Shown piece by piece: positions 16,046-18,701 of a stretch of DNA of 64,000 nt. The stretch's first letter is position 1; each line of letters begins with the position of its first letter. Under the pieces are notes generated by a model. The model made no database searches and was not told where the DNA came from. It worked only from the letters and a program-made list of their open reading frames with translations. Both the position numbers and the translations under genes were made by a program. This stretch comes from Escherichia coli (lineage in GTDB: Bacteria; Pseudomonadota; Gammaproteobacteria; Enterobacterales; Enterobacteriaceae), in assembly GCF_003018235.1 (NCBI RefSeq), contig NZ_CP027437.1; one strand, written 5' to 3'.

Positions 16046-16158
16046 TGATGATGGCGATAAAATCATAAAAATGCGCTTTTTTCCGCGCCGACCCGCCCCG
16101 TGGACAGGCCCACCCCACCAGGAGGACCCGCAAAAAAGGCGGCATATTTGCCGCCCTG
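16046..16158. repeat. Direct repeat copy A (~110 bp): minus-strand intrinsic terminator plus conserved GC-rich block
   Basis: Aligns with 18594-18701; contains hairpin GGCGGCAAATATGCCGCC plus T6 on minus strand 15 nt after the capsid gene stop. Confidence 0.7.
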
Positions 16159-16169
16159 TAAACTGTGTA

Positions 16170-18065
16170 TCAGCCGGAAGCCGTACCGCTCGATTTGACC
16201 ATGCCGCGATAGTCCAGCGCGGCCACACCGGCATCAATACGAACCTTCCAGGCGACACCGTCAACGATGAAGCCTTCCTGCTGTTCAAGGTAAGGCTCGT
16301 CATTACCATCAAGATAAGCCACCTCGATTGTGTCCGTTCCCTGTGCTGAAAGCATGTACCATTGATTCACACTAACATCATCCAGACGAGGATCGACAAT
16401 AATATCCAGTAGCTTGTGATACGGGTTAAATATGCCGCTGTTTTTATCGGCCCCGAAAGGTGCGGTTGAATTAATCATTTGCAACGCGCGATCTTCCAGT
16501 GCTGCCGGAACTAACAGGAATTTAGGTGCAATGTTCAGCACCTCGCCGTTTTTATCTTTCTGTATGCGCATAGCGTGACGTGCTGCACTAAGCCCCGGCG
16601 TCGTCATGCCAAGATCGATAAGGTTGTTGTGTTTTTTATCAAACAAGGCCACACCATCAGACAGCTTGCCGTTTCCTGTAAGTACCAGATTAACCAGATT
16701 GCCAACCGTTCTGGCTGCTGCACGCCCCATAGCCATTGGCACGGTAGACAACTGATCAAGGTCATCATTGATTATCGCCTGGCGGGTAATACTGAAAATA
16801 TTCCCGTATGTAGCCAGCGCGATTGGCTCACCGCGATCGCTGGTGGTGATGTATTTATATTCTGCCCCTTCCGGCACTTTGTTTAATGTTGAAAAACCAT
16901 TCAGGCCAACGCGGCGGGCTTCACGGAAGTTTGACAGAGAACCTTTTTTAGTCCACTGGCGGAATGTTTCGCCGCTGTGCTCCCAGCCTGCCAGCACTGA
17001 TTTTTCAGCGCCACCAGCCAGGATGTAAGTAAAATCGCTGCTGCTGTGAGTGAATGCCGCATTAACAATCTGCGAACGCGTGCTGTAGCTGCCTGTGCTT
17101 ATGCCACGATGGGTTAATGATGCCTGTGCCATATCGAAAAGGCTCATCATGGCGTAAGGATTGCCGCGTTCGGCCTGTTCGTGACCAAGACGTGCGTTAA
17201 GCCCCTGACGCATGGCATCGCCGGTTATGTTGCCGTTATCCGTATACGCGTAGTAAAGATTTGCGGGGGTGTTTTTGTTGGTGGGTGTCGATTCCTTGCC
17301 CATAGCCAATAAAAGGCGTTCGCGCGCATCCTCAACGCTACAACCTGCGTCTGCCAGGCAGTTAATAGCCAGGTCGTTATATTTCCCGTTGAACGTGCCA
17401 AACAATTCGCGAATGCCGTTTAGTCGTTCCTGTTCGCCGCTGGCTTTGTTCTGGTTGATCATGTTTTTGATACTTTCCGGCATATTTGAAAAATCTCCGA
17501 TTCGTTTTGATTCAATTCTGGCCATTGCTGTAATCGCGGGTATAACCTCATCTGCGAAGCCGTTAGCCTTACACTCATTGCCATCCATCCAGGTTTCCGC
17601 CTCCATCATGGCGGTGATTTCCTGTTTGCTTTTTCCCGTTCTTCCGGCGTAGGTTTCCGCCATCGTGTCGCCCAGCTTGTCCATCAGGTCAGCAAAGCGG
17701 CGAACGTCGCCCGACACGCCAGAAGTAACACCACGGGGGGCATGTATCATCATCATTGCGTTAGCGGGCATCACGATGTGATCGCCACACATGGCAATAA
17801 ACGAGGCCATAGAAGCCGCTATGCCTTCAATGTGTACGATTTTTTTCGCCGGATGATTTTTCAGGGCGTTATAGATAGCCAGCCCCTGAAAGATGTCGCC
17901 GCCTGGTGAATGGATACGCAAATGGATTTCAGACACGTCACCACACGCGCTTATCTGGTCGGTTAATGTTGACGCCTGTACACCGTAACCGCCTATTTCG
18001 TCATAAATGCGAACGTGAAGGGCGTCGGCTTTTGCCTGTATGCTGTACCAGGATTTCATAGCCAT
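16170..18065 (-). CDS. Prohead serine protease (ClpP/S14-like) fused to HK97-fold major capsid protein (631 aa)
   Basis: N-terminal ~190 aa with protease-like motifs (IHSPGG, GIAASMASF, MIHAPRG); C-terminal ~370 aa resembles phage major capsid proteins (ITRQAIINDDL, FLLVPAALEDRA, GVAWKVRIDAGVAALDYRGM). Confidence 0.75.
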   Translation of the reverse strand: MAMKSWYSIQAKADALHVRIYDEIGGYGVQASTLTDQISACGDVSEIHLRIHSPGGDIFQGLAIYNALKNHPAKKIVHIEGIAASMASFIAMCGDHIVMPANAMMMIHAPRGVTSGVSGDVRRFADLMDKLGDTMAETYAGRTGKSKQEITAMMEAETWMDGNECKANGFADEVIPAITAMARIESKRIGDFSNMPESIKNMINQNKASGEQERLNGIRELFGTFNGKYNDLAINCLADAGCSVEDARERLLLAMGKESTPTNKNTPANLYYAYTDNGNITGDAMRQGLNARLGHEQAERGNPYAMMSLFDMAQASLTHRGISTGSYSTRSQIVNAAFTHSSSDFTYILAGGAEKSVLAGWEHSGETFRQWTKKGSLSNFREARRVGLNGFSTLNKVPEGAEYKYITTSDRGEPIALATYGNIFSITRQAIINDDLDQLSTVPMAMGRAAARTVGNLVNLVLTGNGKLSDGVALFDKKHNNLIDLGMTTPGLSAARHAMRIQKDKNGEVLNIAPKFLLVPAALEDRALQMINSTAPFGADKNSGIFNPYHKLLDIIVDPRLDDVSVNQWYMLSAQGTDTIEVAYLDGNDEPYLEQQEGFIVDGVAWKVRIDAGVAALDYRGMVKSSGTASG

Positions 18066-18250
18066 GCCCCTAACGTGTGCCCATACCAGTACTCTACCGC
18101 GCTGCGTGCAATTTGCCCTTTGGTCGGTACTGGCATTCCTGGGTGATTTTCCCTTATGAACTGCTGATAGCGTTCAATCTTCTCCATCGTTCCGGCGTCT
18201 ATGTGCACTGTTGCGCTTTTATCCGGTTTTCTGGTGTTGTTCTCTGGCAT
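18056..18250 (-). CDS. Hypothetical small protein (64 aa), overlaps the capsid gene start by 10 nt
   Basis: Start moved to MPENNTRK, with GGAGG RBS 7 nt upstream. Confidence 0.5.
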   Translation of the reverse strand: MPENNTRKPDKSATVHIDAGTMEKIERYQQFIRENHPGMPVPTKGQIARSAVEYWYGHTLGAWL

Positions 18251-18371
18251 AAATCCGCCTCCGTTTTGATTAACGGGCATCATTATTGATCGATAAAAGT
18301 AATAGATAAATCATTTTCTACCTAAAAATCAGATTATGATTTTTCTGATTATTTCGAGAAAAGCAAATCAT

Positions 18372-18487
18372 TTGACGCATTATTGCTATTTTGGCAATAT
18401 TAAGTCTCATTCATTCCGGTAGTAGAAGTTCGTTTGTCGTACTAAAGCGCCTCCGGTAGCACCATCGGGGGCGCTTTTTTTGTGCCT
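18372..18487 (+). ncRNA. Candidate small RNA (about 80 nt) between promoter-like TTGACG-N17/18-AATATT and a strong intrinsic terminator
   Basis: No ATG in the transcribed segment; 10-bp GC-rich stem (GCGCCTCCGG/CCGGGGGCGC with G-U pairs) followed by T7; terminator is plus-strand only in a region where all genes are minus-strand. Confidence 0.35.
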
Positions 18488-18593
18488 GTTTTTTTTGTAA
18501 ATATTTTCGGGAATGTTCCAGTGGTGAACAAAAAACAACCATAATCGACACTGAAATTTTTATCAGCCAAATATATCAATAAGTTATGTTAGT

Positions 18594-18701
18594 GGTGATG
18601 GTGCCATAAAAATCAAAAAATGCGCCTTTTTCCGCGCCGACCCGCCCCGTGGATGCCCCCACCAACCAGGAGGACCCACAAAAAAGCCGGATTGCTCCGG
18701 C
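18594..18701. repeat. Direct repeat copy B (~110 bp): minus-strand intrinsic terminator plus conserved GC-rich block
   Basis: Aligns with 16046-16158; hairpin GCCGGAGCAATCCGGC plus T6 on minus strand just after the PerC-like gene stop. Confidence 0.7.

What the first reader, a model, noticed from the sequence alone, without database searches (positions are those of the whole stretch)
16046..18701. Two ~110-bp direct repeats bracket the capsid module; each carries a terminator plus a conserved GC-rich block
The sequence TGATGG..ATAAAA.TCA.AAAAATGCGC.TTTTTCCGCGCCGACCCGCCCCGTGGA..GCCC.ACC..ACCAGGAGGACCC.CAAAAAAG occurs at 16046-16158 and 18594-18701 in the same orientation. On the minus strand each copy starts with an intrinsic terminator that ends the upstream gene (capsid gene; PerC-like gene), then a GC-rich segment (GGGTCCTCCTGG...CCACGGGGCGGGTCGGCGCGG), then an AT-rich region leading into the next small gene. 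Together they delimit a 2.5-kb unit holding only the 64-aa ORF and the capsid fusion. They could be regulatory cassettes, recombination or packaging signals, or scars of module exchange.
Basis: seen in the sequence. Interest (0 to 1): 0.7.

Follow-up and report, generated by a model that had tools for sequence, protein, structure and literature searches.

The report
Two phage-type cos packaging sites
The two repeats are lambda-type cos DNA-packaging sites of a roughly 10-kb phage satellite (a PICI) integrated at tRNA-Pro; PICI cos sites, even paired ones, are already known, but here the two sites flank the capsid gene and carry recognition regions that match two different groups of helper phages.

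Summary
The repeat is real. It occurs at 16040-16165 and 18590-18705, and patchy homology continues about 230 nt on the minus strand. It is not an RNA or a promoter cassette. Each copy aligns subsite by subsite with the phage lambda cos site:
- the cosQ heptamer GGGTCCT
- a 23-24 nt spacer
- the cosN left half ACG|GGGCGG
- an R3-position repeat and an IHF-like site

The same element lies between Rz and terS/terL in Stx and other lambdoid phages.

The island (about 15323-25664) is a Gram-negative PICI with int, AlpA, a RepA helicase plus iterons, PerC, a ClpP-protease/capsid fusion and no terminase.

Copy A has the cosB allele of VT1-Sakai/Stx2 phages. Copy B has the allele of phages 1720a-02/CP-1639. 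Those two phages share a 99% identical TerL and differ in the TerS DNA-binding domain.

In an IMG/VR survey, 27 of 35 related islands keep both sites, about 2.5 kb apart and in direct orientation, and the two sites never share an allele. Capsid-less B/A hybrid deletion derivatives also exist.

Paired cos sites are already known from EcCICFT073, where they are inverted, flank rppA and depend on Rpp. I therefore classify this as a new variant of a known kind. That it serves two helper classes is inferred, not shown.

The parts
15930..16135 (-). cos copy A, complete: cosQ, cosN and a cosB of the VT1-Sakai/Stx2-phage type
   Evidence: 84-85% identical over ~200 nt to the cos region of VT1-Sakai and Stx2 phages. 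Aligns with lambda cos.
16123..16129 (-). cosQ heptamer GGGTCCT of copy A, 24 nt upstream of the nick-equivalent position
   Evidence: Lambda has the same heptamer 23 nt from its left end (cosQ as defined in the PMC6092414 supplement).
16087..16098 (-). cosN cohesive-end equivalent GGGCGGGTCGGC of copy A; bp 1 = 16098
   Evidence: Aligns with the lambda left end GGGCGGCGACCT at the junction of the record's two ends.
16042..16053 (-). R3-position repeat CATCATCATCAT (bp 46-57), allele type I
   Evidence: Lies where lambda R3 sits (bp 50-65, PMC9026076). The same allele occurs in phages whose TerS N-terminal domains fall in clusters 1 and 3.
16130..16158 (-). intrinsic terminator after the capsid gene: hairpin GGGCGGCAAATATGCCGCC plus T-run
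   Evidence: dG -16.1 kcal/mol, z -3.45. An A-type hairpin is conserved in sibling islands.
18480..18683 (-). cos copy B, complete: cosQ, cosN and a cosB of the 1720a-02/CP-1639 type
   Evidence: 85% identical over 167 nt to the cos region of phages 1720a-02 and CP-1639, but only 72-74% to VT1-Sakai and the Stx2 phages. Alignment A3.
18671..18677 (-). cosQ heptamer GGGTCCT of copy B, 23 nt upstream of the nick-equivalent position, as in lambda
18636..18647 (-). cosN cohesive-end equivalent GGGCGGGTCGGC of copy B, identical to copy A; bp 1 = 18647
18592..18603 (-). R3-position repeat CACCATCACCAC (bp 45-56), allele type II
18574..18586 (-). perfect IHF consensus TAACTTATTGATA (reverse complement of WATCAANNNNTTR) at the I1 position
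   Evidence: It aligns with the lambda I1 region.
18685..18702 (-). intrinsic terminator after the PerC gene: hairpin AGCCGGAGCAATCCGGCT plus T-run
   Evidence: The same hairpin precedes copy B in all sibling islands, whether the upstream gene is SSB or PerC.
18056..18250 (-). 64-aa ORF (phrog_4934, function unknown), first gene of the cassette between the two cos sites
   Evidence: Conserved next to the capsid gene in all sibling islands.
16170..18065 (-). ClpP-like prohead protease / major capsid protein fusion
   Evidence: NF045540, 881 bits against a cutoff of 475; phrog_133. The best phage relative is an Stx2 phage at 52% identity.
15621..15902 (-). 93-aa ORF (phrog_1561, function unknown) downstream of cos A; last gene of the island
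   Evidence: A 93-aa ORF (282 nt) occupies the same last-gene position in EcCICFT073; homologues at 72-100% identity occupy it in the sibling islands.
15323..25664 (-). the satellite island, about 10.3 kb, between a 9-bp core GCACGAGAG (15323 and 25656) and the 3' end of tRNA-Pro(GGG)
   Evidence: It carries int 24190-25449, AlpA 23478-23684 (PF05930), RepA helicase 20428-21828, iterons 20238-20429 (family D2), a second tyrosine recombinase 18981-19994, and PerC 18709-18984.

Best explanation
Each repeat is a complete lambda-type cos site (cosQ, cosN, cosB). Together they are the DNA-packaging signals of a helper-dependent satellite, a Gram-negative PICI integrated at tRNA-Pro.

Proposed mechanism, inferred from lambda biology:
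1. After helper induction the island excises and replicates from its RepA/iteron origin into concatemers.
2. The helper's TerS binds the R-type repeats of cosB across an IHF-induced bend, and TerL nicks cosN.
3. DNA is pumped in the minus-strand direction.
4. Packaging ends at a later cos that has cosQ, once the head is full. The cos only 2.5 kb downstream of copy B would therefore be skipped.

The two sites share cosQ and, in this island, an identical cohesive-end sequence, but they carry different cosB alleles. Copy A carries the allele of VT1-Sakai/Stx2-type phages. Copy B carries the allele of 1720a-02/CP-1639-type phages. These phages have essentially the same TerL and TerS C-terminus and differ in the TerS DNA-binding domain.

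The most likely purpose of the second site is that the satellite can be packaged by helpers of either TerS specificity class without an Rpp-type adaptor.

My probabilities: the elements are cos homologues, about 0.95. At least one is used for packaging, about 0.85. Both are functional and widen helper range, about 0.45.
For: - Homology to lambda cos. Subsite-by-subsite alignment with lambda cos, anchored on the physical ends of the lambda record, and with the experimentally validated EcCICFT073 cos1 and cos2 (sequences and function in PMC6092414).
- Position in phages. In phages the element sits between Rz and terS/terL.
- Spacing. The cosQ heptamer lies 23-24 nt from the nick-equivalent position, against 23 nt in lambda. 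Copy B has a perfect IHF consensus at the I1 position.
- Two alleles. Copy A matches VT1-Sakai/Stx2 cosB (84-85%). Copy B matches 1720a-02/CP-1639 cosB (85%; alignment A3).
- Helper proteins. TerL of the two phages is 99% identical. Their TerS proteins are 77% identical overall; the 65-residue N-terminal segment used for clustering is 54% identical, while the C-terminal ~90 residues are 96% identical.
- Allele tracks TerS. In prophages the R3-position allele correlates with the TerS N-terminal cluster.
- Conservation. 27 of 35 assessable sibling islands keep both sites in direct orientation, 2506-2548 bp apart. Copy A is always type I or V and copy B is always type II, IV or another type, never the same as A.
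- No adaptor and no terminase. No RppA homologue was found in any two-cos locus, and this island has no terminase gene.
- Island identity. The island meets the PICI hallmarks.
Against: - No experiment shows cleavage or packaging at either site.
- Eight of 35 sibling islands lack copy B altogether, so it is dispensable.
- In three islands copy B has a mutated cosQ (AGGTACT) and a cosN centre unlike copy A.
- The cohesive-end sequences of A and B are identical in only 7 of 28 islands.
- The distance from GGGCGG to CGCGG varies from 10 to 12 nt among copies.
- In helper-embedded islands the cosB allele of the surrounding prophage does not always match either satellite site (L066 and L056).
- In EcCICFT073, deleting cos2 increased transfer (PMC6092414), so a second cos can be neutral or costly.
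Confidence: 0.8

Rival explanations
1. Only copy A, which sits in the phage-like position directly upstream of terS in sibling islands, is the working cos. Copy B is a passenger that arrived with a neighbouring block (the SSB gene upstream or the capsid cassette downstream) through recombination with a phage of another cosB class. It persists because it is harmless: a cos 2.5 kb downstream of an initiation site is skipped until the head is full.
For: Copy B is absent from 8 of 35 islands, and exactly those islands also lack the SSB block. cosQ has decayed to AGGTACT in three islands, and the cohesive-end sequences of A and B mostly differ. Homology between islands with different upstream genes starts exactly at the copy-B terminator, which marks a module junction. 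Deleting cos2 improved EcCICFT073 transfer (PMC6092414).
Against: Copy B keeps every cos subsite. cosQ is intact in 25 of 28 islands, ACGGGGCGG in 28 of 28, and the R3 allele and an IHF consensus are present. Copy B stays 85% or more identical to working phage cos sites of a specific class in at least two island lineages. Different alleles (II, III, IV and others) occupy the copy-B position in different lineages, which looks like turnover under selection rather than decay.
Confidence: 0.35
2. The pair acts mainly as boundaries of a mobile or losable capsid cassette. Either homologous recombination between the direct repeats, or terminase cutting at both sites followed by cohesive-end rejoining, removes or inserts the 2.5-kb capsid module. 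This generates capsid-plus and capsid-less forms and lets modules move between cos-compatible elements.
For: Natural single-cos islands L046 and L049 carry the copy-B terminator and left half fused to the copy-A cosB. They lack orf64 and the capsid gene, with the crossover inside the shared cosQ-cosN block. A PICI lineage with a lambda-E-type capsid (L064, L065, L106) also brackets its capsid module with two direct cos sites, 2439 bp apart, that have identical cohesive-end sequences. In the window island the two cohesive-end sequences are identical.
Against: The same products arise from ordinary homologous recombination between any direct repeats, so they do not show a dedicated function. Mosaic breakpoints also occur inside the cassette: in L053 and L059 orf64 is 91% identical but the capsid only 63%. 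Cohesive-end sequences differ between A and B in most islands.
Confidence: 0.15
3. The repeats are transcriptional regulatory cassettes (terminator plus promoter/operator, or a structured RNA) that control the small gene downstream of each copy.
For: Each copy starts with a genuine terminator hairpin. A TTTACA box lies upstream of both downstream genes.
Against: The conserved core is shared with phage cos sites that have no terminator there and lie upstream of terS. No Rfam family matches, even at E<=1. The promoter-like hits in the region do not exceed the shuffled expectation (5 found, 4.8 expected). The TTTACA box is also conserved in the phage cosB regions.
Confidence: 0.04

Closest known systems
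Phage lambda cos (cosQ-cosN-cosB)
   Same: The cosQ heptamer GGGTCCT is present with 23-24 nt to the nick-equivalent position. The cosN left half ACG|GGGCGG is conserved. An R3-position element lies at about bp 45-57, followed by an IHF-type site. In the related phages the element sits directly upstream of a Nu1-like terS and an A-like terL.
   Different: The cohesive-end sequence differs: GGGCGGGTCGGC against GGCGGCGACCT-type GGGCGGCGACCT in lambda, with one base fewer before CGCGG. The R elements are triplet repeats (CATCATCATCAT or CACCATCACCAC), not the lambda CGTTTCC type. In the satellite a terminator replaces the phage palindrome upstream of cosQ.
EcCICFT073 cos1/cos2 with RppA (Fillol-Salom et al. 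2018, 2019; PMC6092414, PMC6739421)
   Same: It is an E. coli PICI with two cos sites that keep phage cosQ and cosN and have different cosB regions. The late region has the same overall order: PerC, a small ORF, a capsid gene, the cos sites, then the 93-aa ORF. Packaging depends on the helper terminase.
   Different: In CFT073 the two sites are inverted, 770 bp apart (cosN to cosN), downstream of the capsid gene, and they flank rppA. The cosB of cos1 is unlike any phage cosB and requires the Rpp-TerS heterodimer. In the window island the sites are direct, 2549 bp apart and bracket the capsid cassette. Both cosB regions are ordinary phage alleles of two TerS classes. No Rpp homologue is present. 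The capsid is a ClpP/MCP fusion rather than a lambda-E type.
Helper-embedded PICIs (11capE and relatives; Mageeney et al. 2023, PMC10111431)
   Same: They belong to the same island family. The O157:H7 sibling (L004) sits inside the terL gene of its prophage and carries the same cos-orf64-capsid-cos-orf93 module. That paper notes a 258-bp cos-like segment shared between satellite and helper, and extra integrases in the late zone.
   Different: The window island is integrated at tRNA-Pro, not in a prophage. In what I read, the paper does not describe paired cos sites or cosB alleles.
cos-type SaPIs (SaPIbov5, and SaPIbov4 with two putative cos sites)
   Same: They are satellites that carry the helper's cos instead of a terS and encode a capsid homologue (Ccm in SaPIbov5). 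SaPIbov4 is cited as having two putative cos sites (PMC6092414).
   Different: They are Gram-positive, use an HNH-dependent terminase system and have unrelated sequences. This comparison rests on the cited text only and was not tested here.

Membership tests
lambda-type cos site | cosQ element about 23 nt upstream of the cosN nick | tested here: met
   GGGTCCT lies 24 nt (copy A) and 23 nt (copy B) from the position that aligns with lambda bp 1.
lambda-type cos site | cosN nicking site homologous to those of lambda-like phages | tested here: met
   ACG|GGGCGG...CGCGG aligns with lambda, phi4 and EcCICFT073 cosN. The centre differs, and the spacing is one base shorter than in lambda.
lambda-type cos site | cosB with a TerS-binding R3 at about bp 48-65, followed by an IHF site | tested here: inconclusive
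   Triplet-repeat elements lie at bp 45-57, and copy B has a perfect IHF consensus at bp 62-74; copy A has only a near match. The alleles co-vary with TerS N-terminal clusters in phages. Binding was not tested.
lambda-type cos site | lies immediately upstream of terS/terL in the phages that carry it | tested here: met
   VT1-Sakai, 1720a-02, CP-1639, the O157 prophage and many IMG/VR prophages.
lambda-type cos site | cut by terminase to give cohesive ends, and sufficient for packaging | not testable with these tools
   This needs mapping of virion DNA ends or plasmid transduction assays.
Gram-negative PICI (Fillol-Salom et al. 2018) | integrase, AlpA and pri/rep with an adjacent iteron origin; unidirectional genes; 10-20 kb; a specific att site | tested here: met
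   int, AlpA (PF05930), RepA helicase with 24-nt iterons directly downstream (family D2), about 10.3 kb at tRNA-Pro.
Gram-negative PICI (Fillol-Salom et al. 2018) | lacks a full set of morphogenesis, lysis and terminase genes and depends on a helper | tested here: met
   The capsid fusion is the only virion gene. There is no terS, terL, portal, tail or lysis gene.
Gram-negative PICI (Fillol-Salom et al. 2018) | induced and transferred by a helper phage | not testable with these tools
   Requires experiments.
Rpp-dependent cos PICI (EcCICFT073 type) | encodes an Rpp protein (144-153 aa) next to cos | tested here: not met
   tblastn with RppA gave no hit at the cut-off used (E<=1e-5, >=40% of RppA covered) in the window or in any two-cos locus. 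The 93-aa and 75-aa ORFs have no PDB relative, whereas an RppC structure has been solved.
Rpp-dependent cos PICI (EcCICFT073 type) | cosB unlike any helper phage cosB | tested here: not met
   Both cosB regions are 84-85% identical to phage cosB regions.
capsid-forming PICI (cf-PICI) | encodes its own terminase, portal, protease, capsid and head-tail connectors | tested here: not met
   Only the protease/capsid fusion is present.

The most novel reading that the evidence does not exclude
Bracketing the capsid module with two direct cos sites may be a designed feature of several PICI lineages, doing two jobs. First, the two cosB alleles would let one satellite be packaged by helpers of two TerS specificity classes without an Rpp adaptor. 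Second, because both sites share cosQ and cosN, terminase could cut at both and release the capsid module as a cohesive-ended 2.5-kb cassette. That cassette could then be lost, giving 7.8-kb capsid-less 'cheater' satellites, or ligated into any cos-compatible genome. This would be a terminase-driven route of module exchange.
Probability: 0.12. Interest if true: 0.75.

Novelty: new variant of a known kind. Interest (0 to 1): 0.45.

Why it matters
The way a satellite chooses and widens its helper range decides which virulence and defence cargo spreads among E. coli, including Shiga-toxin strains whose prophages carry exactly these cos types. The known E. coli solution is a protein adaptor (Rpp) that re-targets the helper's TerS. 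This family appears to use a DNA-only solution: one cos site per TerS class. That gives a simple, directly testable system (two sites, two helper classes), natural material for studying cosB/TerS specificity alleles, and a possible source of capsid-less derivative satellites. For annotation, these roughly 230-bp elements can be labelled as cos sites in more than a thousand E. coli genomes where they are currently unannotated.

Tried and rejected
- Rfam, at gathering threshold over the whole window and at E<=1 over 15850-18760: no meaningful hit. The RNA-element reading was dropped.
- G-quadruplex or structured-RNA reading of the G-rich block: considered from the sequence, then dropped once the block aligned base for base with cosQ-cosN of lambda and related phages.
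- Promoter scan: promoter-like hits do not exceed the shuffled expectation.
- orf64 as a gpW-like head-tail joining protein: BLASTP against the prophage W-position protein gave E=0.23, so it is not supported.
- The 93-aa and 75-aa ORFs against PDB sequences, to detect Rpp- or TerS-like proteins: no hits.
- att repeat of 12 nt or more between the tRNA and the far end of the island: none. Only a 9-bp core, GCACGAGAG, was found.
- mEp213/mEp460 record ends as physical cos ends: the records are not opened at the nick-equivalent position. LR595868 starts 5 nt upstream of it, so they do not define the nick.
- Literature search for a description of direct cos pairs around PICI capsid genes: nothing in the held library beyond the EcCICFT073 work and the Murialdo and Feiss review. 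This does not prove that no such description exists elsewhere.
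Full report
**Observation.** The two copies are present as described, on the same strand, at 16040-16165 (copy A) and 18590-18705 (copy B).
- The gapless blocks are 61 nt at 84% and 34 nt at 85% identity.
- In a gapped alignment the homology is longer than reported. After a nearly invariant core it continues in patches for about 120 nt more on the minus strand, including GGTTGTTTTTTGTTC and TTTACAAAAAA.
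- The composite pattern GGGTCCT-N18-30-GGGCGG occurs exactly twice in 64 kb, against 0.01 expected.
- Each copy is preceded on the minus strand by a hairpin plus U-run, with dG -16.1 and -15.1 kcal/mol.
- Between the copies lie only a 64-aa ORF and a 631-aa ClpP-like prohead protease/major capsid fusion (NF045540, 881 bits).

**What the element is.** Read on the minus strand, each copy has this layout:
1. A terminator.
2. GGGTCCT.
3. A 23-24 nt spacer.
4. ACG|GGGCGGGTCGGC|GCGG.
5. An A/T-rich stretch carrying a triplet repeat.
6. An IHF-like site.
7. Further conserved boxes.

I fetched both ends of the lambda record and joined them. The copies then align subsite by subsite with lambda cos. GGGTCCT corresponds to cosQ, which in lambda lies 23 nt from the left end. 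ACG|GGGCGG corresponds to the left half of cosN, at the physical end of the lambda genome. The I1 region also aligns. The lambda subsite definitions come from the supplement of PMC6092414 and from PMC9026076.

The same element occurs in lambdoid phages, always between Rz and the small and large terminase genes. Examples are VT1-Sakai, several Stx2 phages, 1720a-02, CP-1639, mEp213/043/460 and Fels-1. In complete E. coli genomes it occurs at 1681 places in 1041 genomes, almost all unannotated. No Rfam family matches.

**Context.** The island runs from a 9-bp core at 15323 to the 3' end of tRNA-Pro(GGG) at about 25664, roughly 10.3 kb. In order, it carries:
- an integrase
- an AlpA-family regulator (PF05930)
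- an Icd-like gene and a DUF4222 gene
- a RepA-type helicase followed by 24-nt iterons (family D2)
- a second tyrosine recombinase
- PerC
- cos B, the 64-aa ORF, the capsid fusion, cos A
- a 93-aa ORF

This is the gene order of Gram-negative PICIs (PMC6092414, PMC10111431). There is no terminase, portal, tail or lysis gene.

**Comparison with what is published.** EcCICFT073 was shown experimentally to carry two functional cos sites. Cos1 has a non-phage cosB that is read by the Rpp-TerS heterodimer.

I located those sites in the CFT073 genome. They lie at L006 2529-2570 (+) and 3298-3339 (-). They are therefore inverted, flank rppA, and sit downstream of the capsid and decoration genes. No cos lies between PerC and the small ORF.

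The window island differs in four ways:
- The two sites are direct repeats.
- They are 2549 bp apart.
- They bracket the capsid cassette.
- No Rpp homologue is detectable.

**Two cosB alleles.**
- Copy A is 84-85% identical over about 200 nt to the cos region of VT1-Sakai and Stx2 phages. Phages 1720a-02 and CP-1639 match it only through the shared core.
- Copy B is 85% identical over 167 nt to 1720a-02 and CP-1639, but only 72-74% to VT1-Sakai and the Stx2 phages.
- At the position of lambda R3, copy A has CATCATCATCAT (bp 46-57) and copy B has CACCATCACCAC (bp 45-56). Copy B also has a perfect IHF consensus at bp 62-74.
- The two phage groups have a 99% identical TerL. Their TerS proteins are 77% identical overall. 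The C-terminal ~90 residues are 96% identical, while the 65-residue N-terminal (DNA-binding) segment is about 54% identical.

This is the classical pattern of a packaging-specificity swap.

**Survey of relatives.** An exact-pattern scan of IMG/VR for the cosN core returned 96 loci.
- Conserved module: (SSB, or integrase plus PerC) - terminator - cos B - orf64 - capsid fusion - terminator - cos A - (a terS homologue in one lineage) - orf93.
- Counting the window and its near-identical SCU-111 copy (L001), 28 islands have both sites, always direct and 2506-2548 bp apart.
- Of 35 islands with enough upstream sequence to judge, 27 have copy B. The 8 without it also lack the SSB block.
- Copy A is always R3-allele type I or V. 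Copy B is type II or IV, with one other type. The two are never the same.
- All four alleles also occur in prophages directly upstream of terS and terL, and there the allele tracks the TerS N-terminal cluster.
- A lineage with a lambda-E-type capsid (L064, L065, L106) likewise brackets its capsid module with two direct cos sites, 2439 bp apart.

**Deletion derivatives.** L046, a complete 7.3-kb contig, and L049 have a single hybrid cos. It consists of the copy-B terminator and left half joined to the copy-A cosB and terS, with no orf64 or capsid gene. The crossover lies inside the shared cosQ-cosN block. This is the product expected from homologous recombination between the repeats. It is equally the product expected from packaging of the A-to-B interval followed by cohesive-end cyclisation. 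The data cannot tell these two routes apart.

**Mechanism: what is shown and what is inferred.**

Shown:
- homology to functional cos sites
- position and subsite architecture
- the allele relationships
- conservation of the paired arrangement

Inferred from lambda biology (PMC9026076; head-filling dependence of cosQ recognition is from my own knowledge of Cue and Feiss 1997 and was not checked here):
1. The helper's TerS binds cosB.
2. TerL nicks cosN.
3. Packaging runs towards lower coordinates.
4. A cos only 2.5 kb downstream is skipped because the head is not yet full.
5. Termination needs cosQ and cosN but not a matching cosB.

Having one cosB allele for each of two TerS classes would therefore let either helper class initiate, while either site could terminate. 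In the window island the two cohesive-end sequences are identical, so any combination of ends could cyclise.

**Caveats.**
- Copy B is dispensable in nature.
- In three islands its cosQ is AGGTACT.
- The cohesive-end sequences of A and B match in only 7 of 28 islands.
- The GGGCGG-to-CGCGG distance varies from 10 to 12 nt.
- In helper-embedded islands the prophage allele sometimes matches neither satellite site.
- In EcCICFT073 the second cos was mildly deleterious.

For these reasons I put the dual-helper reading at about 0.45. The 'passenger' reading of copy B is at about 0.35.

**Verdict.** The finding is real and is explained: the repeats are two cos packaging sites of a PICI. PICI cos sites, paired ones included, are known. 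The direct arrangement around the capsid cassette, with two ordinary phage cosB alleles and no Rpp, conserved in several lineages, is a variant I did not find described in the papers available to me.

Noticed in passing
window 18372-18485 (+ strand): A strong hairpin (14-bp stem) plus T-run lies at 18444-18485 on the plus strand, with a promoter-like TTGACG-18-AATATT at 18372-18401. This could encode an ~80-nt RNA antisense to the leader of the orf64-capsid operon. The hairpin is conserved in the O157 and ST130 sibling islands. Rfam gives only sub-threshold hits (ctRNA_p42d, 19 bits).
   Followed up: partly
window 18284-18400: The leader between cos B and orf64 is almost invariant among islands that are otherwise about 88% identical (alignment A2). 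It contains an inverted repeat ATCAGA...TCTGAT (about 18328-18349), which is probably an operator or promoter for the capsid operon.
   Followed up: no
window 20238-20429: Three 24-nt direct repeats, CCTCACTTTTACTCCTCACTTTTT, spaced 83-85 bp, with inverted copies, lie directly downstream of the RepA helicase gene. This is the expected iteron-type PICI replication origin. Sibling islands have different iterons (for example GGTGAACAG in L028).
   Followed up: partly
window 18709-19994: A second tyrosine recombinase (337 aa) plus a PerC-family gene occupy the slot that holds an SSB gene in most sibling islands. The break in homology falls exactly at the terminator upstream of cos B.
   Followed up: partly
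window 15323 and 25656: Only a 9-bp core, GCACGAGAG, is shared between the tRNA-Pro end and the far end of the island. The far-end copy lacks the last bases of the tRNA, which fits the 'damaged attR tRNA fragment' reported for PICIs (PMC10111431).
   Followed up: partly
L013, L023, L031 and others (IMG/VR), downstream of cos A: One lineage of sibling islands encodes its own TerS homologue (about 55% identical to the 1720a-02 TerS) directly after cos A and before orf93. The window island and the O157 lineage lack it.
   Followed up: partly
L004 (E. coli O157:H7 ECP19-198), 4193-14080: A sibling island with the same cos-capsid-cos module is inserted inside the terL gene of a lambdoid prophage, making it a helper-embedded PICI. 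That prophage's own cos (L004, about 2319) has the copy-A cosB allele.
   Followed up: partly
L039 (IMG/VR contig, 9991 bp): Parts of two different islands of this family, with capsids 63% and about 90% identical to the window capsid, lie side by side on one contig. This may be a tandem or nested insertion.
   Followed up: no
NZ_CP051727.1 (E. coli SCU-111): SCU-111 is the only complete genome whose copy A is 100% identical to the query; over the whole 3.4-kb module it is 99.8% identical. It has a third cos-like place elsewhere in its chromosome, possibly a resident helper prophage. Its position and cosB allele were not determined. Five cos-like places in the collection lie on plasmids.
   Followed up: no
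cos copies in L003, L004, L005 and the window: The number of bases between GGGCGG and CGCGG in cosN is 10, 11 or 12 in different phages and islands (12 in lambda). If the nick positions are fixed to the half-sites, the overhang length would differ between them.
   Followed up: no
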